NCBI GenBank assembly: GCA_943367575.1
Contig: CALRJR020000009.1
Coordinates: forward strand, 2,369 to 66,368
Reading direction: 5' to 3'
DNA: 64,000 nucleotides
Source: Prosthecochloris vibrioformis
GTDB lineage: Bacteria; Pseudomonadota; Alphaproteobacteria; Sphingomonadales; Sphingomonadaceae
Part shown: piece after piece, positions 23,350-41,502 of the stretch
Position numbering within the stretch: the stretch's first letter is position 1
How the letters are laid out: every line of letters starts with the position of its first letter
Made by a program: the position numbers and the translations under genes
The notes under the pieces: model-generated
Seen by the model: the letters and a program-made list of their open reading frames with translations, nothing else
The model's database searches: none
What the model was told of the DNA's origin: nothing

Positions 23350-23529
23350 CTACGCGTCGCAACCGGCTGATTACGCGCGCCGTTGCGGCCAATTATGTCG
23401 GTTTCGGGTCAATTAGTTATTCGCTCGCGCACAAGACCCTACGCCCGCGCCATGGCTCAATCCCCTCACTGTCGGGAGCATCCTGAACCAACGGGAGCCC
23501 CATCTCGGGAGGATCAACACGATTGGGGG

Positions 23530-26046: not shown

Positions 26047-26204
26047 GGTGCAAACAGCGTAAACCGGCCCGGATTGGACGCGCCGGGGCGGGATCAATTG
26101 TTCGGGCGCGGGCGATCAAGTCTTGATCCGCCATTTGCTTAGTCTCCTCCTCAATCGACCCCCGGCTCATTCCGACCGCGCGGATCGAGCGAAGGAGTGC
26201 GCCG

Positions 26205-27476: not shown

Positions 27477-28711
27477 AGCATGCGGGACACAGTCACCGGA
27501 CGCACATCATGACAATTCTGACCGATCCCTTTTTCGACAGCCTCGGCACCTCGATCCTCGAAACGGTTGAGGCAGAGACGCTGCCCCCCGCCTGCTACAC
27601 CGATGAGGAATTCTACCGGTTCGAGAAAGAGGCGCTGTTCTACCGCGAATGGCTGTGCGTCGGGCGCGTCGAGTGGCTGGCGCAGCCGGGCGACTATTTC
27701 ACCACCACCCATGCCAATGAACCCTTGGTCATCGCAATGGATCGGGCGGGGGCGATCCAGGCCATGTCCTCGGTCTGCCAGCACCGCGCGATGCTGGTCG
27801 CGGAGGGCAAGGGCAATGCGCGCGGTTTTACCTGCCCCTATCATCACTGGTCCTATGACCTGGACGGCACGCTGATCGGCGCCCCGGCAATGGGTCGCAC
27901 GTGCAATTTCGACAAGCGCCAGCACAGCTTGCCGCGGCTCAAGGTCGAAACCTGGCACGGGTTCATCTTCGTCAATTTCGATCTTGAGGCCGCCCCGCTC
28001 GCGCCGCGCCTTGCGGGAATCGAGCCGGTGGTAGCCAATTACGACTTCGCATCACTGCGCGGACCCGAGCCGGCGTCGCATGAATTCGCCTGGAACTGGA
28101 AGGTCCAGTTCGAGAACAACAATGACGGCTATCATGCCAACCGCCTGCACAAGGGGCTGCATGATTATATCCCAAGCTCACTGGCAAGCTTTCCGCCGGT
28201 GCCGGAGGGGACGGCCGGCTATTACCGGCTGAACGGATCGACCCACGCCAATGCCAGCTTCAACCCGACCGGCAAGGCGCTGTTCCCGGTATTCCCAGCG
28301 CTGAGCGAGGAGGAGCAGAACCGGCTGTTGTTCGTCAATCTGCCCCCGTCGCTGTCGCTGGTGGTGCTCAACGATGTCGTCATCTACCTCATCATGGACG
28401 CCCGCTCGGCGAACACCCACGGCCTGACCTTTGGCAGCCTGTATCTGCCCGAAGCGATGGAGGCCCCCGACTTCGAGGAAAAGCGGCAGCTGAACGACGA
28501 ATACACCAGCCATATCGTCGCGCAGGATCTGCACGTCGATCTGCTGGTGCAGCAGGGCCTGAACTCCCGCTTCGCGCCGCGCGGCCGCTATAGCTGGCAG
28601 GAGGATGCGCAGCGCCAGTTCAACCTGTGGCTGGTCGAACGCTATCGCTCCGAATGGGACCGGCGGCGCGGACCCGCCGCGCCCATCAGTCGGATCCAGC
28701 GCGCATCCTGA
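27473..28711 (+). CDS. Rieske [2Fe-2S] non-haem-iron oxygenase, alpha subunit only
   Basis: The Rieske motif is CQHRAMLV..(17)..CPYHHWSY and the mononuclear iron motif is NNNDGYHANRLH. ATG 27473 overlaps the MFS stop (ATGA). The alternative ATG 27509 gives MTILTDPFF. Confidence 0.85.
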   Translation: MKHAGHSHRTHIMTILTDPFFDSLGTSILETVEAETLPPACYTDEEFYRFEKEALFYREWLCVGRVEWLAQPGDYFTTTHANEPLVIAMDRAGAIQAMSSVCQHRAMLVAEGKGNARGFTCPYHHWSYDLDGTLIGAPAMGRTCNFDKRQHSLPRLKVETWHGFIFVNFDLEAAPLAPRLAGIEPVVANYDFASLRGPEPASHEFAWNWKVQFENNNDGYHANRLHKGLHDYIPSSLASFPPVPEGTAGYYRLNGSTHANASFNPTGKALFPVFPALSEEEQNRLLFVNLPPSLSLVVLNDVVIYLIMDARSANTHGLTFGSLYLPEAMEAPDFEEKRQLNDEYTSHIVAQDLHVDLLVQQGLNSRFAPRGRYSWQEDAQRQFNLWLVERYRSEWDRRRGPAAPISRIQRAS

Positions 28712-28801
28712 TCCGCCCGCCTGAGCGGACCGACATCTTCTGCGGGTGACGCATGGTGCGTCGCCATCGCCATCCCCTGCCCGTTTCGAGGAGCACTTCG
28801 C

Positions 28802-29287
28802 ATGACCAACACGCTGATCTTCGTCGATCTCGCCAGCGACGACCCCGCCGCCGCAGCGACATTCTATGCCGATGTGTTTGGATGGGAGAACGACCCGCGC
28901 CCGCAGGGCATCTATCACCGCATGGTCCCGGGCGGCTTCTTCAAGCACAAGGACGGTAGCGACAGCCAGATCGGCAACCTTCACCTCGGCATCTTCGACG
29001 CGGCCAATGCGCGCCCGCACCCCGATCCGGCGGGAGTTGCTCCACGCGAACTGGCCGCGGCGGGACGCAAGGCGCGGATCTGGATCCTGATCGGCGACGA
29101 TGACAGCGCCGAACGGATTTTGGGCGCGGCCGAAAGCCGGGGTGCAACGATCCTGTGGCGCAATCACTATTGGGCCGAGTTCAACGGCTACAACCACGCC
29201 TTTGCCGACCCCTGGGGCAACGAGATCGTGCTGTGGGGTAAGGCCGGCGAGAATCCGCAGATTCCCGGGGATTTTACGCGCGAATAG
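28802..29287 (+). CDS. VOC (glyoxalase/bleomycin-resistance/dioxygenase) family protein
   Basis: It is 161 aa. The N-terminal strand LIFVDLASDDPAAAATFYADVFGWE is typical of VOC modules. GAGGAG lies upstream. Confidence 0.7.
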   Translation: MTNTLIFVDLASDDPAAAATFYADVFGWENDPRPQGIYHRMVPGGFFKHKDGSDSQIGNLHLGIFDAANARPHPDPAGVAPRELAAAGRKARIWILIGDDDSAERILGAAESRGATILWRNHYWAEFNGYNHAFADPWGNEIVLWGKAGENPQIPGDFTRE

Positions 29288-29343
29288 CGCATCGCACCAC
29301 CGCGCAAAAACAAGGACTTGTGCGCGGCGATACAAGACCTTCC

Positions 29344-29353
29344 GGCAATTGCC
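29344..29353. promoter_or_regulatory. perfect 10-bp palindrome GGCAATTGCC inside the operon gap
   Basis: It lies in the 145-nt gap between the VOC and LigB-type genes, 79 nt upstream of ATG 29432. A hairpin CCGCGCA..TGCGCGG lies just upstream, at about 29296-29322. Confidence 0.3.
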
Positions 29354-29431
29354 CGCCAAGTTTTGTCGGGTCGCAGACATCGGGGCGAAGAGGAAGGGCA
29401 TGATCGATCAGAACAGAAACGCGGTGGCACG

Positions 29432-30217
29432 ATGAGCCGGTTACCCGTCGTCTTCTTCGGCCATGGCAGCCCGATGATCGCGCTGGAGCAGAACCATGTC
29501 ACCCGCGCATGGCGGGCGATTGCGGACCGGATCGAGCGGCCACGCGCGATCCTGTGCATCTCGGCCCATTGGCTGACTCAGGGCACCGCCGTCACCGGTA
29601 TGGTCGCGCCGCGCACGATTCACGATTTCGGCGCCTCCTTTCCTCAGGCGCTGTTCGATGTCCAATATCCGGCGCGCGGGGATCCGGCGCTGGCGCAGCG
29701 CGTCGCAGAGCTGCTCGCGCCGATGCCGGTCGGGATTGATCGCGAATGGGGGCTGGACCACGGCACCTGGTCGGTGCTGCGCCATTGTTTCCCCGATGCC
29801 GATGTCCCGGTGATCCAGCTCGGCATGGACATCGCCAAGTCGCCGCTCGACCATTGGCAAGTGGGCGAACGGTTACGCCCGCTGCGCGACGAAGGGGTGC
29901 TGGTGATCGGCACGGGCAATATCGTCCATAATCTGCGCGAGATGGACTGGGGCAATCCCGATGCGCCGCCCTATCCATGGGCGGCCCGGTTCAACGCGGC
30001 GATGCTGAACGCAGTGGTCGAGGATCGGCCCGAGGCGGTGATCGACTATCGGTCTCTGGGCACCGATGCCACGCTGTCGGTGCCGCACCCGGACCATTTC
30101 TGGCCGCTGCTCTATGTGCTCGGCGCACGCCATCCGGGGGAGGCCGCCGTGCTCGACCCCGATTTCATCCATCATAAATCGCTCGGCATGACGAGCATCG
30201 TGATCGGCAGCGCCTGA
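29432..30217 (+). CDS. class III (LigB-type) extradiol ring-cleavage dioxygenase, YgiD / 4,5-DOPA dioxygenase-like
   Basis: ORF 29318..30217, with the start at ATG 29432. MSRLPVVFFGHGSPM and ILCISAHW are the N-terminal His-containing blocks of YgiD-type enzymes. Confidence 0.8.
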   Translation: MSRLPVVFFGHGSPMIALEQNHVTRAWRAIADRIERPRAILCISAHWLTQGTAVTGMVAPRTIHDFGASFPQALFDVQYPARGDPALAQRVAELLAPMPVGIDREWGLDHGTWSVLRHCFPDADVPVIQLGMDIAKSPLDHWQVGERLRPLRDEGVLVIGTGNIVHNLREMDWGNPDAPPYPWAARFNAAMLNAVVEDRPEAVIDYRSLGTDATLSVPHPDHFWPLLYVLGARHPGEAAVLDPDFIHHKSLGMTSIVIGSA

Positions 30218-30252
30218 CCGCGACCAGACTTCCAGTCCACAGGGGGAAAGAT

Positions 30253-31344
30253 ATGGGCCTCATCATCCCGCACGGCGCGATCCGCGATGCGATCCAGCCG
30301 ACCGCGCTCCACCGGCTGCGCGCGACGCCGGAAACGGTTCACTGGGGCTATTTCTCGCCCGAAATCGCGCCGGCACTGACCGTGCGCAGCGGCGACCTGA
30401 TCCAGGCGCAGGCGGTGACGCATCATGCCGGGGACGACCCCGAACTGATGTTCGACGACGACATCCGACGCATCTTTGCCGAGATCGACCCGGAGACACG
30501 CGCGCCCGGATGCCACATCATGACCGGCCCGATCTACGTCGAAGGTGCAGAGCCCGGCGACATGCTGGAGGTGCGCTATTTCGAGATGGTGCCCCGGTTC
30601 AACTATGGCTCGAACCTGCAGGCCAATTGGGGGCACCTCTATCAGGAATTCGGCGAGACCGAGCGGGTCACCATTTACCGCATCGATCCGGGCTCCAACA
30701 CCGCCAGCGCGCTCTATGCCTATGATGTCGAGGAGAAATATGTCGTGCCGGGGCGGATCACCAACTGCCCGGTCTGCGACCGTCAGCCCGCCCTGCCCGG
30801 AATCACCATTCCGGCGCGGCCGCACCTTGGCACAGCGGGCGTGGCACCGGCAGTGAACGAACCGGTCAGCACCATCCCGCCCGGCCTGCACGGCGGCAAT
30901 ATCGACAATTGGCGGATCGGCGCGGGCGCGCGCATGTATTATCCGGTCCAGGTCGCCGGTGGGCTGTTCTCGATCGGCGACCCGCATATCAGCCAGGGCG
31001 ATGGCGAGATCAGCGGCACCGCGATCGAAGCCTCGCTCGACGTGCTGTTCCAGATCGTGCTGCGCAAGGATTTCAGCTTCCCCTCGCCCCTGCTCGAAAC
31101 CGGCGATTGCTGGATCGTCCATGGCTTTGGCGCTGATCTCGACCAGGCGATGAAGAGTGCGTCGATCGACATGCTGCATTTGCTGACCGAGCATCAGGGG
31201 CTGTCGCGCACCGACGCCTATTCGCTGATGAGCGTGGCGAGCGATTTCGGCGTGACCCAGGTGGTCGACGGGACGCAGGGTATTCATTGCCGCATCGACC
31301 GGCGCATCTTCGGCGGCAAGGGGACCGTGCGTGACCCCGAATAA
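30253..31344 (+). CDS. acetamidase/formamidase family amidohydrolase (free-standing copy)
   Basis: AGGGGGA RBS upstream. It has the blocks TVHWGYF, AVTHHAGDDPE, GPIYVEGAEPGD, GGNIDNWR and GDPHISQGDGEISGTAIE. It is paralogous to the C-terminal half of 33190..35562. Confidence 0.85.
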   Translation: MGLIIPHGAIRDAIQPTALHRLRATPETVHWGYFSPEIAPALTVRSGDLIQAQAVTHHAGDDPELMFDDDIRRIFAEIDPETRAPGCHIMTGPIYVEGAEPGDMLEVRYFEMVPRFNYGSNLQANWGHLYQEFGETERVTIYRIDPGSNTASALYAYDVEEKYVVPGRITNCPVCDRQPALPGITIPARPHLGTAGVAPAVNEPVSTIPPGLHGGNIDNWRIGAGARMYYPVQVAGGLFSIGDPHISQGDGEISGTAIEASLDVLFQIVLRKDFSFPSPLLETGDCWIVHGFGADLDQAMKSASIDMLHLLTEHQGLSRTDAYSLMSVASDFGVTQVVDGTQGIHCRIDRRIFGGKGTVRDPE

Positions 31345-31374
31345 GCCCATAGCGGCAAGCGATTGCGACTGACG

Positions 31375-32376
31375 ATGCTGGCCCGGTTGCGCCTCGATCC
31401 GTTCCTGATGATCCTGCTGGCGGTGCTGGCGGTGGCAACGCTGCTGCCAGTGCGCGGCGGCGCGGCCATTGCCGCCGATCATTTGACCGACGTGGCGATC
31501 GCGCTGCTGTTCTTTCTGCACGGGGCGAAGCTGTCGCGGGCTGCGATCCTGGCAGGGATCGGCGCGTGGAAACTGCATCTGCTGGTGCTGAGCGCAACCT
31601 ACGCGCTGTTTCCGCTGCTCGGCCTCGCCATCGTAGCGGCGCTGGGCGGGGCGGTCGATCCGCTGGTGGCGATGGGGGTGCTGTACCTCGCCATCCTGCC
31701 CTCGACCGTCCAGTCGTCGATCGCCTTTACCGCCATCGCCGGGGGCAATGTCCCCGCCGCGATCTGCAGCGCGTCGCTGTCGAACATCCTGGGTATTCTG
31801 CTGACCCCGTTGCTAGCAGCCTGGCTGATCGGCGGACATGCGGCGGGCGGCGATTTCTTCGTCCAGGCGGTGACGTCGATCGCCACCCAATTGCTGCTGC
31901 CCTTCATCCTCGGCCATCTCGCCCGGCCGTGGATCGGCGGGTGGATCGACCGCCATCGCCAGCTGGTGACGCGGGTCGATCGCGGCGTGATCCTGCTGGT
32001 CGTCTACACCGCGTTCAGCGCCGCCGTGGTGGCGGGGTTGTGGACGCGGCTGTCGATCAGCGACCTAGCTACGATCGCGGCCATCTGCGCGGTCCTGCTG
32101 GCAGCAGTGCTGCTACTCACCCGGCTTGCCGCGCGGCTGGCCGGTCTGCCGCGCCCGGACGCCATCGTGCTGCTGTTCTGCGGATCGAAGAAAAGCCTGG
32201 CGAGCGGCGTGCCGGTGGCCGGGGCGCTGTTTCCCGCCGCACAGGTCGGCGTCGTGATCCTGCCGCTGATGCTGTTCCACCAACTGCAACTGATCGTCTG
32301 TTCGATCATCGCGGCGCGCCTGGCCCGCCAGAACGAACCCATCGAGGAGCCCGACCATGTCCGACGCACTGCTTGA
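31375..32376 (+). CDS. bile acid:sodium symporter (BASS) family transporter, YfeH-like
   Basis: ORF 31363..32376 opens with TTG, and the first ATG is at 31375 (MLARLRLDPFLMILL). It is a multi-TM protein. Confidence 0.8.
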   Translation: MLARLRLDPFLMILLAVLAVATLLPVRGGAAIAADHLTDVAIALLFFLHGAKLSRAAILAGIGAWKLHLLVLSATYALFPLLGLAIVAALGGAVDPLVAMGVLYLAILPSTVQSSIAFTAIAGGNVPAAICSASLSNILGILLTPLLAAWLIGGHAAGGDFFVQAVTSIATQLLLPFILGHLARPWIGGWIDRHRQLVTRVDRGVILLVVYTAFSAAVVAGLWTRLSISDLATIAAICAVLLAAVLLLTRLAARLAGLPRPDAIVLLFCGSKKSLASGVPVAGALFPAAQVGVVILPLMLFHQLQLIVCSIIAARLARQNEPIEEPDHVRRTA

Positions 32377-33169
32377 GATCCGGCCGATGACCCGCCAGAT
32401 CGGCGCGGAGATCTTCGGCGTCGACCTCAACCAGCCGCTCGACGAAGCGATGGTCGCCGCCATCCACGATGCGCTGATGGTGCATCAGGTGATCTTCTTC
32501 CGCGACCAGCACTTCACGCATGAGGAGCACAAGCGCCTCGGTCGCTATTTCGGCGATCTGGCCCTGCACAGCGGGGTCGCGGGCCTGCCTGACCATCCCG
32601 AAATCGTGGCGATCCATGCCGACGCCAACAGCACCTATATCGCCGGCGACAACTGGCATTCGGACCTCAGCGAATATGAAGAGCCGCCGATGGGTAGCAT
32701 CCTGTATATGCACACATTGCCTGACAGCGGCGGCGATACGCTGTTTTCGAGCATGTATGCCGCCTATGACGCGCTGTCCCCGGCGATGCGGGCGTTTCTC
32801 GACCCGCTGACCGCCGTGCATGATTCCAACCACATCTATCGCGAGCTGTTTCCCGACGTTCAGAAAACCTATCCCTGCAACACCCACCCGGTGGTGCGGA
32901 CGCATCCGGTGACCAAGCGCAAATGCCTGTTCGTGTCGGAATCCAAGACGACGCGGATCAACGGCCTGTCCAAGGCGGAAAGCAGCGCCGTGCTGCGCTT
33001 CCTGGCGGATCATGTGAAGGACCCGAATTTCCAGGTCCGCTTCCGCTGGCAACCGCATTCGGTCGCCTTCTGGGACAATCGCTGCACCCAGCATTTTGCG
33101 GTGTGGGACTATTTCCCCGATACGCGGTCGGGCACGCGGGTGACGATCAAGGGCGACCGGCCCTATTGA
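32357..33169 (+). CDS. TauD/TfdA-family Fe(II)/2-oxoglutarate dioxygenase (copy 1)
   Basis: GAGGAG RBS upstream, with a 20-nt overlap with the BASS gene. It aligns along its whole length with E. coli TauD as I recall it (DNWHSD iron motif, HPVVRTHPVT, FRWQPHSVAFWDNRCTQH). Confidence 0.88.
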   Translation: MSDALLEIRPMTRQIGAEIFGVDLNQPLDEAMVAAIHDALMVHQVIFFRDQHFTHEEHKRLGRYFGDLALHSGVAGLPDHPEIVAIHADANSTYIAGDNWHSDLSEYEEPPMGSILYMHTLPDSGGDTLFSSMYAAYDALSPAMRAFLDPLTAVHDSNHIYRELFPDVQKTYPCNTHPVVRTHPVTKRKCLFVSESKTTRINGLSKAESSAVLRFLADHVKDPNFQVRFRWQPHSVAFWDNRCTQHFAVWDYFPDTRSGTRVTIKGDRPY

Positions 33170-33189: not shown

Positions 33190-35562
33190 TCAGGCGGTGA
33201 ACAGGGCCTTGCGGATGATCGCATGCACGCCCCAATTGCCGTTCACCACCTGAGACACCCCGAAATCGACCCCGACCGACAGCAGCGAGATCGCCTCGTC
33301 CTCGCTCAGCCCCTTGGTCGTGATCAGAAAGCGGCGCGCCTTGCGGAACGCATCGCGCATCGCCCCGTCGATGCTGCTTTTCTTGTAGACCTCGCTCTGC
33401 GCGTCCTCGCCGAGTTCCTTGAGGTAATCGGGGTGGCTGAAGCCCATGATGACCCATTCGCTCTCGGTCTCGATTAGCGGATAGTCGAGGTCGCGCAGGT
33501 GATCGCGCAACTCGCTCGCCGGGTGCAGCACCACCTGGATCAGCGCATTCATCGAACACTCGATCGCCGTGCCGCACAGTTCGGAATCGCCCTGTGAGGC
33601 GTGCGGATCGCCCAGCGACAACAGCCCGCCCGCGACCTGAACCGGAAGGAACACGCTCGATCCCGGCCCGGTGCGCCAATTGTCGAGATTGCCGCCAAAG
33701 CTGTTCGGCGGCACCGAATCGACCAGCCCGGAATGCGCCGGTGCCAGCGCGATCACGCCGAAATGCGGGCGGATCGGGATTTCAACATTGCGCAGGATTT
33801 CGTAATTCCGCTCGATCGTCGCGGGGTTCACCGGCACGCCGGGATAGTCGTAGCGGACATGGACCCGGCCCGACGGATCGGTCTGAGGCGTCCAGCGGAA
33901 ACTATACACCGCATGGGCGCTGGGCGGACGCGCGCCGCCATGTTCGACCTCGTAAATGGTGATGACCTCGCGCTGCTTCGGCTCGGTCAGCAGGTCGCTA
34001 TAGTGAAAGCCCCAGAAGGTCGCGGCATTGCTGCCGAACGCCTTGCCGGCAAAGCGCGGATTGCCGCTCTGCCGCGCCCTCAGGTCGAGGATGCGGACCT
34101 CGACGACATCGCCGGGCATTGCGCTCTGAATGGCGATCGGCCCGGTGCAGATATGGACGCCGAACCCCTCGCCCGGCCCGCGCCCGACCGCGCTCGCATC
34201 CATCGGCCCGGCACCGCGCCGGTCGATCGCCTTGTGATGATGGTCCCAATGGAACACGCTTTCGGCAGCGGGATCGCCCTGCACCATCCGTTCGGGATCG
34301 TCATTGGCGTGATGGGTCAGGGTCTCGACCGAGACGAAATCGCCCGACCGGATCGTCAGCACGGGTTTCAGCGCGCGACTGAAATAGCCCCAATGCACCG
34401 TCTGTGGATTGGCCGGGAGGTGATGGTGCCGCACGGGTTCGGTGACCGGTGGCGCATCGTCCCCGCCCGGTGCCACCGCATCAGCATCAGCCTCAGCATC
34501 CGCATCAGCTTCGGGCACAACCGCCAGGGTCCGGTCACGCCGCGCGGGGCGACCCCGGCGCGGCATCTCCTCGGGCGGTGCATCCCCCACGCCCTTGCGA
34601 TACTCGCGCGGCGACACGCCATATTGCTCACGAAACGCGCGGCTGAACGACGCGCTATCGTTGAACCCCCATTGGAACAGAATATCGGAGATCGACTTCT
34701 GGACATGCAGCGGGCTGCGCAGGTCGAGCCGACAGCGTTCGAGCCGCCGCACCTTCACATAATGGCCAAAACTGTCGTCGATCGATTCGAACAGCTTTTG
34801 CAGATAGCGCGGCGAAATGCCGTGTTCGGTGGCGATCTGCTGATAATTCAGGTTGGGATCGCTCAGCCGCATCTCGATCGTCTGGAAAATCCGCTCCAGC
34901 AGTCCCGCGCGCATGCCGGCGGCACCGCCCATCGCCTTTGGCGGCGCATTGTCCAGCAGTGCGGACAGCAGAAACTCCGGGAGCGCCAGTTCCACCGGCC
35001 GGGCATGATCGGTCGTCATGTCCATGATCGTGTCGGCAAGCGATCGGAGCATCCCGGCGAACACCCGCCCCGCCCCCGCCTCGGCCGCAATCCGGCGGGG
35101 ATGATCGGGCAACGGCGCCTTGAGCCGCGCGGTGATGATCGCCGGCGGCAAGCGGACGATCAGCACGCGATTGTCGCCGGAGGAGACGAACCGTGCGACG
35201 GATTCGCTCCGCGCGGCCATCAGGTCGCCGTCGACCAGCTCGCTCTCACCCGTCGCCGTCGTCACCCGTGCGCTGCCGTCCATCATCAGCGTCAGCCACA
35301 GGCCGCCCGGCTCTTCGCTGAAATCCAGCGCCCAGCCCTGGGCCGTGCCGGTCAGACGGATGAAATCGATCCCCTGCCCGCTGCGAAAATGGACAAGCTC
35401 GCCATAGGGATCGTCGAGCACCTGCTCGAGCGTGATCGAAAGCCGTTGCAATGCGAAGCGCCATGCGTCGCGGCGCTGTTCGCGGGGATAGGCGTTGGTA
35501 GTAAAACGCAACGAACAATGGTCCCTGGTTGCAGGCCCTGCTCCTTGCCCGGCCGATCTCAT
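33190..35562 (-). CDS. AraC-family transcriptional regulator fused to a complete acetamidase/formamidase domain (790 aa)
   Basis: This is a single uninterrupted ORF, with ATG 35562 verified. Residues about 1-220 form an AraC-type effector region. Residues about 225-323 form the dual HTH (ISPRYLQKLF..., FNDSASFSRAFREQYGVSPREYRK). Residues about 324-377 form an acidic/Pro-rich linker with EADADAEADADA. Residues about 378-790 form the formamidase family domain (TVHWGYF, TLTHHANDDPE, GGNLDNWR, GDPHASQGDSELCGTAIE). Confidence 0.8.
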   Translation of the reverse strand: MRSAGQGAGPATRDHCSLRFTTNAYPREQRRDAWRFALQRLSITLEQVLDDPYGELVHFRSGQGIDFIRLTGTAQGWALDFSEEPGGLWLTLMMDGSARVTTATGESELVDGDLMAARSESVARFVSSGDNRVLIVRLPPAIITARLKAPLPDHPRRIAAEAGAGRVFAGMLRSLADTIMDMTTDHARPVELALPEFLLSALLDNAPPKAMGGAAGMRAGLLERIFQTIEMRLSDPNLNYQQIATEHGISPRYLQKLFESIDDSFGHYVKVRRLERCRLDLRSPLHVQKSISDILFQWGFNDSASFSRAFREQYGVSPREYRKGVGDAPPEEMPRRGRPARRDRTLAVVPEADADAEADADAVAPGGDDAPPVTEPVRHHHLPANPQTVHWGYFSRALKPVLTIRSGDFVSVETLTHHANDDPERMVQGDPAAESVFHWDHHHKAIDRRGAGPMDASAVGRGPGEGFGVHICTGPIAIQSAMPGDVVEVRILDLRARQSGNPRFAGKAFGSNAATFWGFHYSDLLTEPKQREVITIYEVEHGGARPPSAHAVYSFRWTPQTDPSGRVHVRYDYPGVPVNPATIERNYEILRNVEIPIRPHFGVIALAPAHSGLVDSVPPNSFGGNLDNWRTGPGSSVFLPVQVAGGLLSLGDPHASQGDSELCGTAIECSMNALIQVVLHPASELRDHLRDLDYPLIETESEWVIMGFSHPDYLKELGEDAQSEVYKKSSIDGAMRDAFRKARRFLITTKGLSEDEAISLLSVGVDFGVSQVVNGNWGVHAIIRKALFTA
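34478..34512 (-). repeat. short imperfect tandem repeat encoding EADADAEADADA in the interdomain linker
   Basis: The plus strand reads gcatcagcatcagcctcagcatccgcatcagcttc (6-nt and 18-nt periodicity). Confidence 0.7.
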
Positions 35563-35620: not shown

Positions 35621-37015
35621 TCACGCGTCGAACGGTGCCGCGCCCTCTCCATAAACAGACATAGCGGATGCCGCGGCGGGACGGTCGGACGTGCGGCCAC
35701 AAATTGCCAACATGGTCAGCGCATAGATCAGCGCGCTCGACGCCATGTCGCCCGGATTCGGTCGCCAGCGCGGCATCCCGGTGGTGATCGCCGGGATGCG
35801 GTGCATGTTGAACACATTATGGTCACGCCACATGCTGGAATAGACCGGATGCGCCCGCTCGACCGGGGCACCCCGCGCCAGTCGCGTGGCAGCATCGACG
35901 GCACCGGCAAGCGGGGCAACCGCGGCGTCCTCCGCCTCGAACCCGTGGCGGACGACCACCGGTTCGACATCGAAGTCCTCGACATCCACCGCACGCATTG
36001 CCGCAACGATGCCGTGCATCGCGTCCGCCGCCTTCTGCCGGGGCGCGAGCGCGACATCGAGATAGAGGGCGCACACTTCGGTCCCCGCACCGAAATCCAT
36101 CGGCGCACCGCCGCGCACCGACGCGATCTGGACGCGCGGGACCGACCGACCGCCGCGAACGTCATGCACCGATACCGCTTCCCAGGCCTGGCTCCAGCGG
36201 TGCAGCGCCTCGATCACCGGGCCGAGGCGATAGATCGGGTTGGGATGGTCCACCGCCCGCTCGGGTGTTTCGAGGATCGGGGTGAACACCCCGCGCCCAA
36301 AGATCCGCACCCGGAACAGCGCATAGCCGCACCCGGTCCAGGTCATGCCGAAATCGGTCCCCTCCGCCGCGATGGCATAGTCGGGCGCGACCCCGCCATG
36401 ATGGAACAGATAATGCGCGCCGATATCCTTGCCGAGATAGGCGACGCCTTCATATTCCTCGATCGGTTCGGGGCCGATCTCGCCCGGACAGGCGGTGAGC
36501 CACGCCTTGCCCGCCAGCGTGATCCCCGCCTTGTTCAGCGCCTTGGCCGCGATCAGGAAACAGGACATCGGGCCACGATCGTTGGAGATCGGATAGCCGC
36601 GCAGCCGCCCGTCTTCGTCCAGCCAGCATTGCGTCCATTCGGGATCGGCCAGCGTTGCCTCACGATAGCGGAAGCGATCCTGATGGGTGATGCCGCTCGG
36701 GCTTTCGGTGTCGAGATGCGCGGTCAGCAACAGATTGGGGCCGACGCCATGGCCGCCGATCTCACCGATGATGTTCGGCCGCTCCGGCGTCGCGCCGACC
36801 TTGCGCGGGCGAAAGCCTTCGCGCTGCATCCAGTCGAACACGAATTGCGCCGCGGCGGCTTCGCTGCGCGAGGGCGCAGGAATATTGCCGAGCGCGAGCG
36901 CGAGCTGAACCAGCTCGTCGGTGTCGATCGCAGCGGCGATAGCGTCGCGTTCCGCTGCGCTGACGGCATAGGGTGCGTGGGCCGGGTCGGCGAATGGCGC
37001 GGGCGTGCCGGTCAT
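35621..37015 (-). CDS. M20-family metallopeptidase / amidohydrolase (ArgE/DapE/carbamoylase-like)
   Basis: It is the 3' part of the 907-aa ORF 35621..38344. The true start is ATG 37015, which overlaps the MFS stop (ATGA). It starts MTGTPAPFADP and has the H-x-D metal block LLLTAHLDTE. Confidence 0.82.
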   Translation of the reverse strand: MTGTPAPFADPAHAPYAVSAAERDAIAAAIDTDELVQLALALGNIPAPSRSEAAAAQFVFDWMQREGFRPRKVGATPERPNIIGEIGGHGVGPNLLLTAHLDTESPSGITHQDRFRYREATLADPEWTQCWLDEDGRLRGYPISNDRGPMSCFLIAAKALNKAGITLAGKAWLTACPGEIGPEPIEEYEGVAYLGKDIGAHYLFHHGGVAPDYAIAAEGTDFGMTWTGCGYALFRVRIFGRGVFTPILETPERAVDHPNPIYRLGPVIEALHRWSQAWEAVSVHDVRGGRSVPRVQIASVRGGAPMDFGAGTEVCALYLDVALAPRQKAADAMHGIVAAMRAVDVEDFDVEPVVVRHGFEAEDAAVAPLAGAVDAATRLARGAPVERAHPVYSSMWRDHNVFNMHRIPAITTGMPRWRPNPGDMASSALIYALTMLAICGRTSDRPAAASAMSVYGEGAAPFDA

Positions 37016-38265
37016 GCGACGTGCGCTGCCAGCGCTGCGACCGGGCTGTGCGCGCCAGCGCCATAGCGGGGCAGGAGCAGCAACAGCGCCATGCCCGACG
37101 ACAGCGCGATGATCGAAACGATCACCGCAAACTGGTAGCTGCCCGTCACATCGAACCCATGGTCGAGCAGCACCGGCGTAATCCCCTGCGCCGCGATGAT
37201 CGCCGAATACATGACGCCGATGATCGCGCCAAAAGCCCGCGTCCCGAAATAGCGCGCGACATAATAGGGCAGCGCACCATATTGCGCGCCCATGCCGATC
37301 CCCAGCAACAGCCCGGCGGCGATCAGCACCGGCACACCTTCGCCGAACTGCAGCAGCGCCAGCCCGATGATCGCCATCGCCACCATCGGGATGACGATGC
37401 GCGGCGTCGGAAACCGGTCGAGCAGCCGCCCACAGGCAATCTGCCACGCCGAGGTCATCAGCGCGAAACAGCTCAGCACCGCCGTCCCGACATCGACCCC
37501 ATAGCCGCGATCGGCGAGGATCGGGATGACATGGCTGAAGATTGCGGTGGTGCAGCCCGCGCCGGATGCGATCGCGACGAGGATGATCCAGAAGCGCGGC
37601 AAGCGCGCCGCTTCGCCCAGCGTCATGCCGACCACCGCGACCGGACCCTCCCCCGCCGAAGCCTCCCGCGCCGGGGCGTCGCGCAGCAGGGTCAGCACCG
37701 CAGGCAGGCCGATCAGCAGGATGATCGCGCCCAGCGCGAGATACCCCGATCGCCAGCCCTGCTGCGCGACAACCGCTGCGGCAACGATCGGCAACAGGAC
37801 CGATCCCACGCCATTGCCCGCTCCCGCGCTGATCCCCAGCGCGGTGCCGCGCCCGGCGTGATACCATTCGGCGATGACCTTGGAGTAGATCGGGGTCGAC
37901 GCCATCGCGCCGAACAGGCTGACCGCCAGAAACACGGCGTAAAACTGAACCAGCGAGGCAGTGGTCAGCGACAGCGCCGCCACCGCCAGCCCGTAGAGCG
38001 CAAGGCCCGGCAGGATCACGCGCCGCGCGCCATGACGGTCGGCGATCCGTCCGATCAAGGGATAGGCGATTGCCCCGGTCACAGCCATGATACCCAGCGC
38101 GACCGAGATCGCCGCGCGGGGCCAGCCAAACTCGGCGGACAGCGGCAGCAGGAACAGCCCGAACACCGCATGGACCGCAGGAGTAGTGCTGACCGCGTTG
38201 CCGAGGGTGCAGGCGATCAGCACGCCGGTCCGCTCGCGCGCGCCCCCGCTCACAGCACCGGCCAC
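37012..38265 (-). CDS. MFS transporter
   Basis: It is 417 aa with a GTG start at 38265 and a 12-TM-like profile. It carries the loop motif GRIADRHGARR. Confidence 0.85.
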   Translation of the reverse strand: MAGAVSGGARERTGVLIACTLGNAVSTTPAVHAVFGLFLLPLSAEFGWPRAAISVALGIMAVTGAIAYPLIGRIADRHGARRVILPGLALYGLAVAALSLTTASLVQFYAVFLAVSLFGAMASTPIYSKVIAEWYHAGRGTALGISAGAGNGVGSVLLPIVAAAVVAQQGWRSGYLALGAIILLIGLPAVLTLLRDAPAREASAGEGPVAVVGMTLGEAARLPRFWIILVAIASGAGCTTAIFSHVIPILADRGYGVDVGTAVLSCFALMTSAWQIACGRLLDRFPTPRIVIPMVAMAIIGLALLQFGEGVPVLIAAGLLLGIGMGAQYGALPYYVARYFGTRAFGAIIGVMYSAIIAAQGITPVLLDHGFDVTGSYQFAVIVSIIALSSGMALLLLLPRYGAGAHSPVAALAAHVA

Positions 38266-39641
38266 AGGCTTGGCGTCGGCTTGCCCGCGCGGGCAAGGAC
38301 ATCGACGGCAGCGGTTTCGACCTCCGCAAACAGCCGCTCTTCATCGATCAGAGTCGACCGGTAGTTGTCGATCACTCGCCGCCCATCCACCCACACGCTG
38401 TGCACTCCGCGCCCGTCGGCGGAATAGACGAGCTGGTTGACGACATTGAGCAAAGGTCGCCATTCTGGGCGGTCGCGATCGTGCAATACGAAATCGGCTT
38501 TCTTGCCCACCTCAAGCGATCCGATCCGGTCGGCCATCCCCGCCCCCTTCGCGCCGTTGATCGTCCCCATTTCCAGCACCTGATAGGCGGAAAACAGGCT
38601 CGCATCGCGGCGCGAATCCTTGAACAGTCCGGCGGTCACGAACATCGCGCGCATCAGGTCGGCGGCATTGCCGTTATTGTTGCCGTCGGTGCCGAGCTGG
38701 AGATTGACGCCAGCGGCGGCCATTTCGGGGAATTTTCCGACCGCGGTCGCGCCATAGGCACCCTTCATCGCGGTCATCGGGCAATGGGTGATGTTGGTCC
38801 CGCTCGCCGCGATCATCGCCACCTCTTCATCGTCGAGATGGATCGCGTGGGTCAGCGACAGATGCGGGCCGAGCACGCCCAGATCGGACAGATGGGCGAT
38901 GGCACGGCGGCCGGTGGTCGCCAGATAGAAATCGGGATCGGCCGGATCGGCGCTCATATGCGCGCTGATCCCCGCGCCATGCGCAGCGGCGAGCGCCGTC
39001 GCCTCGCGCCACAGATCGTCGGTAGCGGTGTTGTGCCCGACCAGGCACGGCCATGCCGCGATCAGCGGGTCGTCGGTGCCGGGGTATCGCGCCAGCTCGG
39101 ACTCGATCGTCGCCACCGCCTGTCGGGTCAGCGCAGCCTGATCGTCGCCCGGCGCAAAGGCGCGGTCCTGCACCCATTGCCCGACCCGCCCGCGAATGCC
39201 GGTCGCGCCCAGCGCATCGACCACCGTGTCGAGATCGAGGATCGTCCCGGCCTCGATGAAGCACGTCGTGCCCGAACGCAGCATCTCCAGCGCAGCGAGT
39301 TGCGCCGCGATCCGCTCTTCTTCCGGGGTCTGCGCAAGATAGGTGGGGATCAGCCATTCAAAGACATTGGTCGCCCAGTCGGCATCGTCCGGGACATTGC
39401 CACGCGTGATCGGCTCACCCGTGATGTGAACATGGCAGTTGACCATGCCCGGCGTCACCACGAACCGGTCGCGGCCATCGATGACCTCACGCGCGACGAC
39501 GGTCTGCTCCACCAGATCGGACGGTCCGACCGCGACGATGCGGTCGCCCGCGATCGCCAGCGCGCCGTCGCGAAAGATGCGCCGTTCGGCATCCATCGTC
39601 ACCACCCAGCAATGGGTGACCAGCAGATCAGCGGCGATCAT
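38250..39641 (-). CDS. amidohydrolase-superfamily deaminase/chlorohydrolase-type enzyme (ATZ/TRZ, MtaD, SsnA-like)
   Basis: The HxH metal motif is GMVNCHVHITGEP and the late block is LQLGTDGNN. ATG 39641 overlaps the upstream stop (ATGA). An alternative ATG lies at 39647. Confidence 0.82.
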   Translation of the reverse strand: MIAADLLVTHCWVVTMDAERRIFRDGALAIAGDRIVAVGPSDLVEQTVVAREVIDGRDRFVVTPGMVNCHVHITGEPITRGNVPDDADWATNVFEWLIPTYLAQTPEEERIAAQLAALEMLRSGTTCFIEAGTILDLDTVVDALGATGIRGRVGQWVQDRAFAPGDDQAALTRQAVATIESELARYPGTDDPLIAAWPCLVGHNTATDDLWREATALAAAHGAGISAHMSADPADPDFYLATTGRRAIAHLSDLGVLGPHLSLTHAIHLDDEEVAMIAASGTNITHCPMTAMKGAYGATAVGKFPEMAAAGVNLQLGTDGNNNGNAADLMRAMFVTAGLFKDSRRDASLFSAYQVLEMGTINGAKGAGMADRIGSLEVGKKADFVLHDRDRPEWRPLLNVVNQLVYSADGRGVHSVWVDGRRVIDNYRSTLIDEERLFAEVETAAVDVLARAGKPTPSLWPVL

Positions 39642-40288
39642 GCCCATGCCGCCGCGACAGCGTCGGCGCGGACCAGCAACGCGCAATTCTTGTATAGAAT
39701 GTCGAGCGCGCTGGAGTGCAGCCCATCCTCATAGGCCCCCGTCGCGTCGGACACGACGAACACATGGTAACCGCGATGAAAGGCGGCACGCGCCGTCTGA
39801 TCGACACAGCAATCGGTGCTGAACCCGGTCATCACCAATGTTTCGATGCCGCGTGCGCGCAGCTGGTCGTCGAAATCGGTGCCGTGGAAACTGTCGAACA
39901 ACAGCTTTTCGATCTCGATATCGCCCGGCTCTGGCTTCACGCCATAATAGTCCGCGCCGCCATCATCGGCGCGACAGATTGCCTCGCCCCCCGGCATCCC
40001 CTTGCGCGCCATCAGCGTCTTGAGCGCCACCGAGTCCGTTTCGGGCCGTGTGACGACACGCATGAAGGCGATGGTCACGCCACGCGCCCGCGCCGCCGCG
40101 ATCAAATCTGCGATCCGGTCCATCGCGGGCGGAACGCTCGACAGGTCGGCACCCACGCGGCCGAGCAGACCATGCGGGGCAGCGAAATCGACCTGGACAT
40201 CGACGACGACCAGCGCGGTGCGCTCCGGCGCCAGCATCAGCGCGAGATCGGCAGCAGCAACATGCGGCAGCGTGTCAGCCTCAACCAT
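39638..40288 (-). CDS. isochorismatase-family cysteine hydrolase (RutB-like)
   Basis: The blocks contain the Asp-Lys-Cys triad candidates: LVVVDVQVDF, IEKLLFDSF and MTGFSTDCCVDQTA. Confidence 0.85.
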   Translation of the reverse strand: MVEADTLPHVAAADLALMLAPERTALVVVDVQVDFAAPHGLLGRVGADLSSVPPAMDRIADLIAAARARGVTIAFMRVVTRPETDSVALKTLMARKGMPGGEAICRADDGGADYYGVKPEPGDIEIEKLLFDSFHGTDFDDQLRARGIETLVMTGFSTDCCVDQTARAAFHRGYHVFVVSDATGAYEDGLHSSALDILYKNCALLVRADAVAAAWA

Positions 40289-41411: not shown

Positions 41412-41502
41412 TCGGCTGGTTCCCCCGATTGGAGAGGCCAGTCTAGCCGCGAGCGGGCGGCATTCTTGATCGGCGGCGCATATTCTGTTGGCCGCGCCGG
41501 TT

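What the first reader, a model, noticed from the sequence alone, without database searches (positions are those of the whole stretch)
33190..35562. AraC-family regulator fused in frame to a complete acetamidase/formamidase domain
One uninterrupted 790-aa ORF combines an AraC-type N-terminal effector region, the canonical double HTH, an acidic/Pro-rich linker and a full-length FmdA/AmdA-family domain. That domain starts at the same conserved block (TVHWGYF) as the free-standing enzyme 2 kb away. It keeps the shared blocks GGN.DNWR and GDPH.SQGD.E..GTAIE, so it does not look degenerate. I do not know of a described AraC regulator carrying an amidase domain. It could be a trigger enzyme that senses or processes an amide inducer for one of the two flanking catabolic operons.
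Basis: partly seen in the sequence, partly recalled or inferred. Interest (0 to 1): 0.75.

Follow-up and report, generated by a model that had tools for sequence, protein, structure and literature searches.

The report
AraC regulator fused to amidase domain
This gene really does encode one protein that joins an AraC-type gene switch to a complete amidase-like domain; it belongs to a widespread but unstudied family that probably senses an amide and switches on the neighbouring breakdown and uptake genes.

Summary
ORF 33190-35562 (-) is uninterrupted. It reads AraC_binding_2 sensor, double HTH, variable acidic/Pro linker, then a full-length FmdA_AmdA domain. The real start is probably TTG 35511 (773 aa).

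It is not a frameshift artefact or a one-off. All 84 related loci fetched carry the same unbroken fusion. They span Alpha-, Beta- and Gammaproteobacteria.

The amidase domain is the slowest-evolving part after the HTH. It keeps every family signature residue. It matches PDB 3B9T at E = 3.6e-175.

72 of 84 loci also carry a free-standing FmdA-family amidase gene, directly adjacent in 35.

I found a 31-bp direct-repeat motif that looks like an AraC-type operator. In this window it occurs exactly three times. Each copy lies upstream of, and points toward, one of three transcription units flanking the fusion gene.

Best reading: a one-component activator whose amidase-derived domain supplies the signal input, for an amide or N-heterocycle catabolic regulon. 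Whether that domain hydrolyses its ligand or only binds it is untested.

I found no paper describing this architecture. Enzyme-fused regulators are already known, so I call it a new variant of a known kind.

The parts
33190..35562 (-).
33190..35511 (-). Probable real coding sequence, starting at TTG 35511 (773 aa, MRFTTNAYP...)
   Evidence: Orthologs start here and the upstream 17 aa are not conserved
34933..35511 (-). N-terminal AraC_binding_2-type (FeaR-like) domain, residues 18-210
   Evidence: Pfam PF14525, 33.8 bits against cut-off 27. NCBIfam FeaR, 110.7 bits, below its cut-off of 199. AF2 pLDDT about 90. 56% mean pairwise identity among Sphingomonadales orthologs.
34588..34932 (-). AraC/XylS double helix-turn-helix DNA-binding domain, residues 211-325
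   Evidence: HTH_18 and HTH_AraC. 89% mean pairwise identity. PDB matches to SoxS, Rob, RamA and MarA.
34435..34587 (-). Acidic/Pro-rich interdomain linker, residues 326-376
   Evidence: Translation. 25% identity and length 39-82 aa among orthologs. pLDDT below 50.
33193..34434 (-). Full-length FmdA_AmdA (acetamidase/formamidase-family) domain, residues 377-790
   Evidence: Pfam PF03069, 84.7 bits. PDB 3B9T, E = 3.6e-175, aligned over 411 residues. 80% mean pairwise identity, 178 of 414 columns invariant.
33673..33696 (-). Family signature block GGNLDNWR (residues 623-630)
   Evidence: N625 and D627 are kept in all 84 related fusions.
33559..33612 (-). Family signature block GDPHASQGDSELCGTAIE (residues 651-668)
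   Evidence: D652, H654, D659 and E661 are kept in all 84 related fusions.
30253..31344 (+). Free-standing FmdA_AmdA paralog (363 aa), the conserved partner gene of the fusion
   Evidence: Pfam. 37% identical to the fusion's C-domain. An ortholog or another FmdA-family gene lies within 10 kb in 72 of 84 loci.
26092..26122 (+). Candidate operator 1, GATCAATTGTTCGGGCGCGGGCGATCAAGTC: direct repeat ATCAA...ATCAAG 22 bp apart, about 98 nt upstream of the MFS gene start at 26205
   Evidence: 27.1 bits with a PWM that excludes this lineage's own sites. Sequence confirmed. Orthologous sites in many loci.
41463..41493 (-). Candidate operator 2, GGCCAACAGAATATGCGCCGCCGATCAAGAA, about 67 nt upstream of the luciferase-like monooxygenase gene start at 41411
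   Evidence: 18.1 bits. Sequence confirmed. The same site type lies upstream of this gene in about 20 loci and was not part of the seed.
23407..23437 (+). Candidate operator 3, GGTCAATTAGTTATTCGCTCGCGCACAAGAC, upstream of the TonB-dependent receptor gene
   Evidence: 18.9 bits. Orthologous sites in L001, L006, L008 and L033.
26205..33169 (+). Predicted regulated operon: MFS, Rieske oxygenase, VOC/glyoxalase, LigB-type extradiol dioxygenase, FmdA amidase, SBF-like transporter, TauD dioxygenase. It converges on the fusion gene.
   Evidence: Pfam and NCBIfam. Same gene order in L001.
35621..41411 (-). Predicted regulated operon upstream of the fusion on the same strand: RutA-like monooxygenase, RutB/BiuH-like isochorismatase, TRZ/ATZ-type amidohydrolase, MFS, M20-like protein. 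The gap to the fusion gene is 58-109 nt, with no terminator-like site.
   Evidence: Same gene order in L001, L003 and L004.

Best explanation
The gene encodes a one-component AraC/XylS-family activator (about 773 aa) with an unusual third module: a complete FmdA_AmdA amidase-type domain tethered by a flexible linker C-terminal to the DNA-binding domain. Shown: the fused architecture is real and strongly conserved, and the amidase domain is under tighter constraint than the canonical N-terminal sensor. Inferred: the amidase-derived domain binds, and probably still hydrolyses, a small amide. That amide would be the substrate or a close analogue of the substrate of the free-standing FmdA-family amidase that almost always accompanies this gene. 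Also inferred: ligand occupancy is passed on to the HTH domain. The HTH domain then binds a 31-bp direct-repeat operator whose promoter-proximal half-site sits at the -35 position. This would activate three transcription units around the gene: the TonB receptor gene, the MFS-Rieske-VOC-LigB-FmdA-SBF-TauD operon, and the RutA-like/RutB-like/amidohydrolase/MFS/M20-like operon that ends at the regulator gene itself. Together they would take up and degrade an N-containing (amide or N-heterocyclic) compound.
For: 1. Real fusion. The ORF is uninterrupted here and in all 84 related loci. The best 80 of 553 relatives among GTDB species genomes are full-length matches, from three proteobacterial classes. 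More than 120 clusters at 90% identity carry all three Pfam domains.
2. Constraint. Within Sphingomonadales, mean pairwise identity is 89% for the HTH, 80% for the amidase domain, 56% for the N-terminal sensor and 25% for the linker. Across classes the N part is 30-45% identical and the C-domain 61-70%.
3. Intact site. Of 75 columns at least 95% identical in both groups of free-standing enzymes, 59 are kept in at least 95% of fusions. These include the family signature residues tested. N625, D627, D652, H654, D659 and E661 are unchanged in 84 of 84 fusions. The same motifs occur in the solved structure 3B9T.
4. A role beyond catalysis. Two minority lineages keep the fused domain although the motifs are eroded (P0121 group) or deleted (P0138 group). 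Each case is seen in several independent members.
5. Conserved partner. A free-standing FmdA-family gene lies within 10 kb in 72 of 84 loci and is directly adjacent in 35. It is the only neighbour shared across classes.
6. Operator. The PWM gives 110 hits of at least 14 bits in 1.69 Mb, against 1-9 in shuffles and 2 in a reversed-sequence control. Nearly all hits lie 30-130 nt upstream of cluster genes and point toward them, including genes that were not in the seed. The window has exactly 3 hits, against 0.45 expected, all in this cluster.
7. In L001 and L004 no other gene in 22 kb carries a transcription-factor Pfam domain.
8. The fusion's C-domains form a single clade in the neighbour-joining tree.
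Against: Nothing here shows ligand binding, catalysis or DNA binding. A canonical N-terminal AraC_binding_2 domain is present and could be the only effector sensor. The operator is assigned to this protein by association alone. Some loci also carry a stand-alone AraC paralog (L003, L018, L019, L021, L032, L037) or a MarR gene (L002). The motif is weak or absent in most betaproteobacterial loci. Strict conservation of the signature residues in 84 of 84 loci fits a working enzyme as well as a sensor. The catalytic mechanism of this family is not established: PMC5353710 says that for the FmdA-type lactamase 2WKN it 'remained elusive'. 'Active site intact' therefore rests on motif conservation only. 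The full-length AF2 model was too poor (pLDDT 66, pTM 0.47) to say anything about contacts between domains. Bootstrap support for a single origin is moderate (18 of 30).
Confidence: 0.55

Rival explanations
1. Inducer-generating enzyme. The C-terminal domain is simply an active amidase. It converts an amide into the acid or amine (or ammonia) that the canonical N-terminal AraC_binding_2 domain senses. The fusion then only ensures that the inducer is produced next to its sensor.
For: A complete AraC_binding_2 domain is present. The signature residues are strictly kept in 84 of 84 loci. The N-terminal domain diverges quickly between lineages that have different neighbouring pathways, as expected of a specificity-determining sensor.
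Against: The P0121 and P0138 lineages keep the C-domain after losing the motifs. A free-standing amidase is nearly always present and could generate the product without any fusion.
Confidence: 0.2
2. Partner-binding or oligomerisation module. The amidase-like domain mainly dimerises the regulator, or forms mixed oligomers with the free-standing paralog. Under this reading the enzyme's substrate state or abundance sequesters or releases the regulator.
For: There is a conserved gene pair with an FmdA-family enzyme. In many Betaproteobacteria that enzyme is 55-58% identical to the fused domain. The deposited structures of this family list 4 or 8 chains per entry. The domain persists where the motifs are lost.
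Against: In this window the partner is only 37% identical, which makes mixed oligomers less likely. Conservation of the signature motif residues would not be needed for a purely structural role.
Confidence: 0.12
3. Plain bifunctional protein. A pathway amidase happens to be tethered to the pathway regulator, with no signalling between the two parts.
For: Both halves look individually functional.
Against: The order, the single clade of fused C-domains and retention across three classes point to selection on the fused state. So does retention in the motif-eroded lineages.
Confidence: 0.1
4. Assembly or sequencing artefact: a lost stop codon or a frameshift joined two adjacent genes.
For: None beyond the unusual length of the ORF.
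Against: The same uninterrupted fusion occurs in 84 of 84 independent loci and in more than 120 protein clusters. The linker is variable but always in frame.
Confidence: 0.01

Closest known systems
PDB 3B9T, deposited as 'Twin-arginine translocation pathway signal protein' (484 aa), and free-standing relatives such as P0126
   Same: Same FmdA_AmdA subfamily as the C-terminal domain. E = 3.6e-175, aligned over 411 residues, with an identical GDPHASQGDSE.CGTAIECS block. P0126 is 65% identical and is the sister of the fusion clade.
   Different: These proteins stand alone and have no DNA-binding part. P0126 carries a twin-arginine leader (ERRSFLKSAF) and 3B9T is named for one, so both are presumably exported. 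The fused domain has no leader and must be cytoplasmic.
FeaR and other AraC_binding_2-type AraC/XylS regulators
   Same: Residues 91-324 match the FeaR model over nearly its full length. The layout is the same: N-terminal sensor followed by a double HTH.
   Different: The score of 110.7 bits is below the equivalog cut-off of 199, so it is FeaR-like but not FeaR. FeaR ends after the HTH, whereas this protein continues for another 460 residues.
Ada and Rob: AraC-family proteins with a functional domain C-terminal to the HTH
   Same: An AraC-type HTH is followed by a further domain. In Ada it is an enzyme (NCBIfam names Ada 'bifunctional DNA-binding transcriptional regulator/O6-methylguanine-DNA methyltransferase'). 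In Rob it is an effector-binding domain (PDB 1D5Y and 7VWY match the HTH; the role of Rob's C-domain is from my own knowledge).
   Different: Only the HTH is homologous. The C-terminal domains are unrelated folds, and neither protein combines an N-terminal AraC_binding_2 domain with a C-terminal module.
Regulators with enzyme-derived sensor domains: MocR/GabR (GntR HTH plus aminotransferase fold), GATase1-like AraC regulators (GbdR, CdhR, FtrA), and trigger enzymes with DNA-binding domains (PutA, BirA, NadR). From my own knowledge, not tested here.
   Same: Same logic: a transcription factor uses a full enzyme fold, active or partly active, as its signal input.
   Different: Different enzyme fold, a different domain order, and for most of them a different HTH family. 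No FmdA_AmdA example was found in the literature searches.
Known regulation of amidase operons: AmiC/AmiR-type (periplasmic-binding-protein fold plus ANTAR antiterminator), as summarised in bioRxiv 10.1101/2024.02.22.581678
   Same: It controls FmdA_AmdA or amidase operons in response to amides. That paper also notes that FmdA_AmdA enzymes act on formamide, acetamide, lactams and aliphatic amides.
   Different: That system has two components and works by antitermination, with a binding-protein sensor. Here a single AraC-type DNA-binding protein carries a copy of the enzyme fold itself.

Membership tests
AraC/XylS family transcriptional regulators | About 100-aa double helix-turn-helix domain (HTH_18 / HTH_AraC) | tested here: met
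   HTH_18 67.9 bits (cut-off 33.6) and HTH_AraC 46.8 bits (cut-off 26.6) at residues 243-323. PDB matches to SoxS, Rob, RamA and MarA.
AraC/XylS family transcriptional regulators | A separate effector-binding or dimerisation domain | tested here: met
   AraC_binding_2, 33.8 bits against cut-off 27, residues 89-202. Confidently folded in the AF2 model.
AraC/XylS family transcriptional regulators | Binds direct-repeat sites next to or overlapping the -35 region of target promoters | tested here: inconclusive
   There is a 31-bp direct-repeat motif (half-sites 22 bp apart) upstream of cluster operons. It gives 110 hits against 1-9 in shuffles and 3 hits in the window against 0.45 expected. A weak TA...T-like signal lies 18-24 nt downstream. 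Binding by this protein is inferred, not shown.
FeaR (NCBIfam NF007243 equivalog) | Score at or above the curated cut-off of 199 bits | tested here: not met
   110.7 bits. It is FeaR-like only.
FmdA_AmdA acetamidase/formamidase family (PF03069) | Pfam match above the gathering score, over the whole fold | tested here: met
   84.7 bits against cut-off 27. End-to-end alignment to the free-standing paralog and to 3B9T residues 72-479.
FmdA_AmdA acetamidase/formamidase family (PF03069) | Family-wide signature residues (GGN.D and GD.H...GD.E..GTA.E) | tested here: met
   Present here. Shared with 3B9T, 2F4L and 5UBU. Kept in 84 of 84 related fusions at N625, D627, D652, H654, D659 and E661.
FmdA_AmdA acetamidase/formamidase family (PF03069) | Amide-hydrolysing activity | not testable with these tools
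   The family's catalytic mechanism is itself unsettled (PMC5353710).
Formamidase FmdA (NCBIfam NF045496 equivalog) | Score at or above the curated cut-off of 500 bits | tested here: not met
   53.6 bits. This is not the formamide-specific enzyme, and the substrate is unknown.
Trigger enzymes with a DNA-binding domain (PutA/BirA/NadR type) | One polypeptide that carries both an enzyme domain and a DNA-binding domain | tested here: met
Trigger enzymes with a DNA-binding domain (PutA/BirA/NadR type) | The enzyme domain is catalytically active and its substrate state controls DNA binding | not testable with these tools
   Only indirect evidence. The motifs are intact in 84 of 84 loci, but two lineages with eroded motifs retain the domain.

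The most novel reading that the evidence does not exclude
The family is a new class of trigger enzyme. The fused FmdA-type domain is a working amidase, and its turnover of a pathway amide, or its mixed oligomerisation with the free-standing paralog, gates an AraC-type DNA-binding domain. Transcription of the whole uptake and catabolic regulon would then track flux through the amidase step rather than a simple ligand concentration.
Probability: 0.25. Interest if true: 0.75.

Novelty: new variant of a known kind. Interest (0 to 1): 0.55.

Why it matters
AraC/XylS regulators form one of the largest families of bacterial transcription factors. How they read their signals is known for only a few sensor-domain types. 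This is an unstudied family in which a complete copy of a pathway enzyme fold is attached behind the DNA-binding domain. It occurs in many soil and water Proteobacteria, including well-known degrader genera such as Sphingomonas, Novosphingobium, Paraburkholderia and Variovorax. The work here turns it into a directly testable system. It gives predicted operators at exact coordinates, a predicted regulon, a conserved partner enzyme, and natural variants with eroded motifs that separate sensing from catalysis. Working it out could reveal the substrate of an uncharacterised N-compound catabolic cluster. It could also yield an amide-responsive switch for biosensors.

Tried and rejected
1. The full-length AF2 model from 34 orthologs was poor (pLDDT 66, pTM 0.47, patchy amidase domain). 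I did not use it for domain contacts or fold search.
2. Literature searches found nothing on the architecture. I searched for the fusion, for the catalytic residues of FmdA_AmdA and for the PDB codes. The only relevant statement was that the mechanism of 2WKN is unresolved.
3. The first Gibbs motif run on DNA upstream of the amidase genes picked up the conserved 3' coding sequence of the preceding LigB gene, not an operator. I rejected it.
4. A 17-column PWM from the first motif was too weak: 436 hits against about 140 in shuffles, mostly inside genes. I replaced it with the 31-bp bipartite model.
5. I could not name the growth substrate. The neighbours are only below-cut-off relatives of RutA, RutB/BiuH, TRZ/ATZ deaminases and taurine dioxygenase. 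LigB passes the 4,5-DOPA dioxygenase cut-off, but that alone does not identify the compound.
6. The roughly 3.5-kb matches in some loci looked like split or duplicated fusions. They are in fact the fusion plus an adjacent free-standing amidase gene on the same strand.
7. P0247 looked like a divergent fusion but reads as frame-shifted translation, so I discarded it.
8. I considered that the neighbouring paralog was the source of the fused domain. I rejected this because it is 37% identical, against 55-65% for other free-standing relatives.
Full report
**Observation**

The minus-strand ORF 33190-35562 exists as described: 790 codons from an ATG with no internal stop. Pfam places four families on it, all above their gathering scores:
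- AraC_binding_2, residues 89-202
- HTH_18, residues 243-323
- HTH_AraC, residues 281-323
- FmdA_AmdA

NCBIfam's best whole-region match is FeaR (residues 91-324, 110.7 bits), below that model's cut-off of 199. The formamidase FmdA equivalog is also far below its cut-off.

Residues 375-788 align end to end with the free-standing 363-aa FmdA_AmdA gene at 30253-31344 (+). Identity is 37% and E = 2e-78. The linker is acidic and Pro-rich.

One correction concerns the start. Orthologs begin at MRFTTNAYP, which corresponds to the TTG at 35511. The 17 residues upstream are not conserved, so the product is probably 773 aa.

**Is the fusion real?**

Yes. A search of the large protein collection returned more than 120 clusters at 90% identity that cover 98% of the query and carry all three Pfam domains. 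They come from Sphingomonas, Novosphingobium, Sphingobium, Altererythrobacter and relatives. JGI names them 'acetamidase/formamidase/AraC-like DNA-binding protein'.

A scan of one genome per GTDB species found 553 relatives. The best 80 are all full-length matches (roughly residues 18-790) at 46-97% identity. They include:
- Alphaproteobacteria: Sphingomonadales, Caulobacter, Hyphomonas, Parvibaculum, Acetobacteraceae, Methylobacterium, Afipia
- Betaproteobacteria: Paraburkholderia, Caballeronia, Variovorax, Cupriavidus, Pandoraea, Janthinobacterium, Herminiimonas
- Gammaproteobacteria: Paraglaciecola, Nevskia

In all 84 loci I extracted, the AraC part and the amidase part lie in one ORF without a stop. 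The linker gap between the two aligned parts is 121-271 nt. A lost stop or a frameshift in this assembly is therefore excluded by comparison.

**Which parts are constrained?**

Among 34 Sphingomonadales orthologs, mean pairwise identity by region is as follows:

| Region | Mean pairwise identity | Note |
|---|---|---|
| HTH | 89% | |
| Amidase domain | 80% | 178 of 414 columns invariant |
| N-terminal sensor | 56% | |
| Linker | 25% | length varies from 39 to 82 aa |

Across classes the N part falls to 30-45% identity, while the amidase domain stays at 61-70%.

The closest solved structure to the C-domain is 3B9T, with E = 3.6e-175 over 411 aligned residues. It is a free-standing protein deposited as a Tat-signal protein. 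Other FmdA_AmdA structures (2F4L, 5UBU, 3TKK, 2II1, 2WKN) match more weakly but share the same motifs.

In a neighbour-joining tree the fused C-domains form one clade. No free-standing sequence falls inside it, and 18 of 30 bootstrap replicates support it. Its sister is P0126, a free-standing protein with a twin-arginine leader. Next come cytoplasmic free-standing enzymes of Betaproteobacteria. The domain was therefore recruited once from this subfamily. It is not a copy of the neighbouring paralog.

**Is the amidase site intact?**

I compared the fused domains with two groups of free-standing enzymes encoded next to them, 17 and 50 sequences. Both groups share 75 columns at 95% identity or more with the same residue. 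The fusions keep 59 of these columns at 95% or more, including the signature residues G623, G624, N625, D627, G651, D652, H654, G658, D659, E661 and G664-E668.

- Relaxed positions in the fusions: H417 (Q in about 45%), D540, Y555, T770 and D774.
- Fixed fusion-specific changes: S615D and Y639L.
- In all 84 GTDB loci, N625, D627, D652, H654, D659 and E661 are unchanged.

Two minority lineages seen in metagenomes tell a different story. The P0121 group has GGS, GA/GN in place of GD, and GDGQ in place of GDGE. The P0138 group has lost both blocks. Each case is reproduced in three or four independent members. These lineages keep the fused domain, so it has a role that does not need the motifs.

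The family's catalytic mechanism is not established in anything I could read (PMC5353710). 'Intact' therefore means intact motifs, not proven activity.

**Conserved company**

Within Sphingomonadales the whole neighbourhood is conserved:
- On one side: a RutA-like luciferase-type monooxygenase, a RutB/BiuH-like isochorismatase, a TRZ/ATZ-type amidohydrolase, an MFS transporter and an M20-like protein, followed by the fusion gene.
- On the other side, convergent: TauD, an SBF or MFS transporter, the FmdA paralog, a LigB-type dioxygenase, a VOC protein, a Rieske oxygenase, an MFS transporter and a TonB-dependent receptor.

Outside that order these neighbours disappear. Betaproteobacterial loci instead carry polar-amino-acid-type ABC transporters, a weakly UrtA-like binding protein, a RidA-family protein, a TetR regulator and a PuuE-like protein.

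The one neighbour that persists is a free-standing FmdA-family amidase gene. It lies within 10 kb in 72 of 84 loci and is directly adjacent in 35. It comes in two kinds:
- orthologs of the window's 363-aa paralog, about 37% identical to the fused domain;
- in Paraburkholderia, Variovorax and relatives, roughly 412-aa cytoplasmic enzymes 55-58% identical to the fused domain.

Several of the 12 loci without a second amidase gene are short contigs. The regulator and an amidase of its own fold are therefore a conserved pair.

**A candidate operator and regulon**

The regions upstream of the VOC gene and of the first MFS gene share a bipartite motif. Its consensus is roughly (G/A)(T/C)CAA-N2-wwT..G.GCGC-N5-6-.(T/C)CAAGA, with two CAA half-sites 22 bp apart.

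I built a 31-column matrix from 16 sites and scanned 1.69 Mb on both strands. It gave 110 hits of at least 14 bits. Five shuffles gave 1-9 hits, and the reversed-sequence control gave 2.

Nearly all hits lie in intergenic DNA 30-130 nt upstream of cluster genes and point toward them. Some are upstream of genes that were not in the seed: the RutA-like operon in about 20 loci, LigB, the FmdA paralog, the TonB receptor, the M20-like gene and TauD. Weaker hits lie beside the fusion or its amidase partner in Nevskia, Methylobacterium, Afipia and Caballeronia.

With a matrix that leaves out this lineage's own sites, the 64-kb window has exactly three hits of at least 14 bits. The expectation is 0.45, and the maximum in 20 shuffles was 2:
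- 23407-23437 (+), upstream of the TonB receptor gene
- 26092-26122 (+), about 98 nt upstream of the MFS-Rieske-VOC-LigB-FmdA-SBF-TauD operon
- 41463-41493 (-), about 67 nt upstream of the RutA-like operon that ends at the fusion gene

A weak TA...T-like signal 18-24 nt downstream of the sites would place the proximal half-site at the -35 position. That is the usual arrangement for AraC-type activators (my own knowledge).

In L001 and L004 no other gene in 22 kb carries a transcription-factor Pfam domain. The fusion protein is therefore the most economical candidate binder. This is an inference by association.

**Mechanism**

My best reading, at confidence 0.55, is a one-component AraC-type activator whose amidase-derived C-terminal domain provides the signal input. 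The ligand would be a small amide related to the substrate of the partner amidase. The output would be activation of the three flanking transcription units.

- Shown: the architecture, its conservation, the intact motifs, the conserved partner gene, and the motif and its positions.
- Inferred: ligand binding by the C-domain, coupling to the HTH, and binding of the motif by this protein.

Rival readings:
- The C-domain is an inducer-generating enzyme that feeds the N-terminal sensor (0.2).
- It is a module that binds the partner enzyme or oligomerises the regulator (0.12).
- It is a tethered enzyme with no signalling role (0.1).
- It is an assembly artefact (0.01).

**Comparison with what is known, and novelty**

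The protein is a member of the AraC/XylS family and of the FmdA_AmdA family by their sequence criteria. It is not FeaR and not formamidase FmdA by NCBI's cut-offs.

It works like other regulators that use an enzyme fold as a sensor (my own knowledge):
- MocR/GabR
- GATase1-type AraC regulators
- Ada
- trigger enzymes such as PutA, BirA and NadR

It differs from the known control of amidase operons by AmiC/AmiR-type antitermination.

Two full-text searches for AraC together with acetamidase or formamidase found no description of this architecture. Automatic annotation already names it. I therefore rate it a new variant of a known kind: widespread, unstudied and now directly testable, but not a new principle. 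Interest is 0.55.

Noticed in passing
L034-L081, 55-180 nt upstream of the fusion gene (for example L053, L046, L043, L048: TGGCACGGACATTGCC at about -68): A sigma-54-type -24/-12 promoter (GGCAC[AG]-N4-TTGC) lies upstream of the fusion gene in 23 of 85 loci. These are mostly Betaproteobacteria, plus Parvibaculum and relatives. In the Caballeronia/Paraburkholderia loci, GC-rich palindromes lie further upstream. This suggests control by nitrogen status in those lineages. The window's own lineage has no such promoter.
   Followed up: partly
window 35621-38344 (-): The 907-aa ORF in the mechanical list is not one gene. Its N-terminal 443 codons are out-of-frame read-through of the MFS gene region (37012-38265). 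The real gene is the 464-aa protein 35621-37015. That protein has no Pfam hit and only weak ArgE/DapE/YgeY (M20) similarity. Its start overlaps the end of the MFS gene by 4 nt.
   Followed up: partly
window 38250-41411 (-), and further genes in L001: The RutA-like monooxygenase and the RutB/BiuH-like isochorismatase are adjacent, followed by a TRZ/ATZ-type amidohydrolase. In L001 the same cluster also holds nitroreductase, SDR and PfkB genes. The set resembles a pyrimidine-ring (Rut-type) degradation module, but every score is far below the equivalog cut-offs. The substrate is unknown.
   Followed up: partly
P0138/P0289/P0292 and P0121/P0271-P0273 (metagenome proteins): Two lineages of the fusion have eroded or deleted amidase signature motifs yet keep the domain. 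They are natural pseudoenzyme variants that could separate sensing from catalysis.
   Followed up: partly
L003, L018, L019, L021 (next to the FmdA paralog); L032, L037 (next to the Rieske gene): A stand-alone FeaR-like AraC regulator of about 328 aa, 36-41% identical to the N part of the fusion, sits in the same cluster in some species. It is a second regulator that might share or compete for the operator.
   Followed up: no
window 29308-29324 (+), within 29288-29430: A half-operator-like sequence, AAACAAGGACTTGTGCG, lies at the annotated TTG start of the LigB ORF (29318). Orthologs of LigB are about 38 codons shorter and have a full site about 116 nt upstream (L001). The LigB start here is probably further downstream, and an internal promoter may exist.
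   Followed up: partly
P0151, P0293 (Vitrella brassicaformis, 950-972 aa): Eukaryotic (chromerid alga) proteins carry a related acetamidase domain inside much longer polypeptides.
   Followed up: no
L023 (6.2-kb contig labelled Actinobacteria bacterium 21-64-8): This contig carries a fusion 65% identical to the query and a Sphingomonadales-type neighbourhood. It is probably mis-binned in the MAG rather than evidence for the family in Actinobacteria.
   Followed up: no
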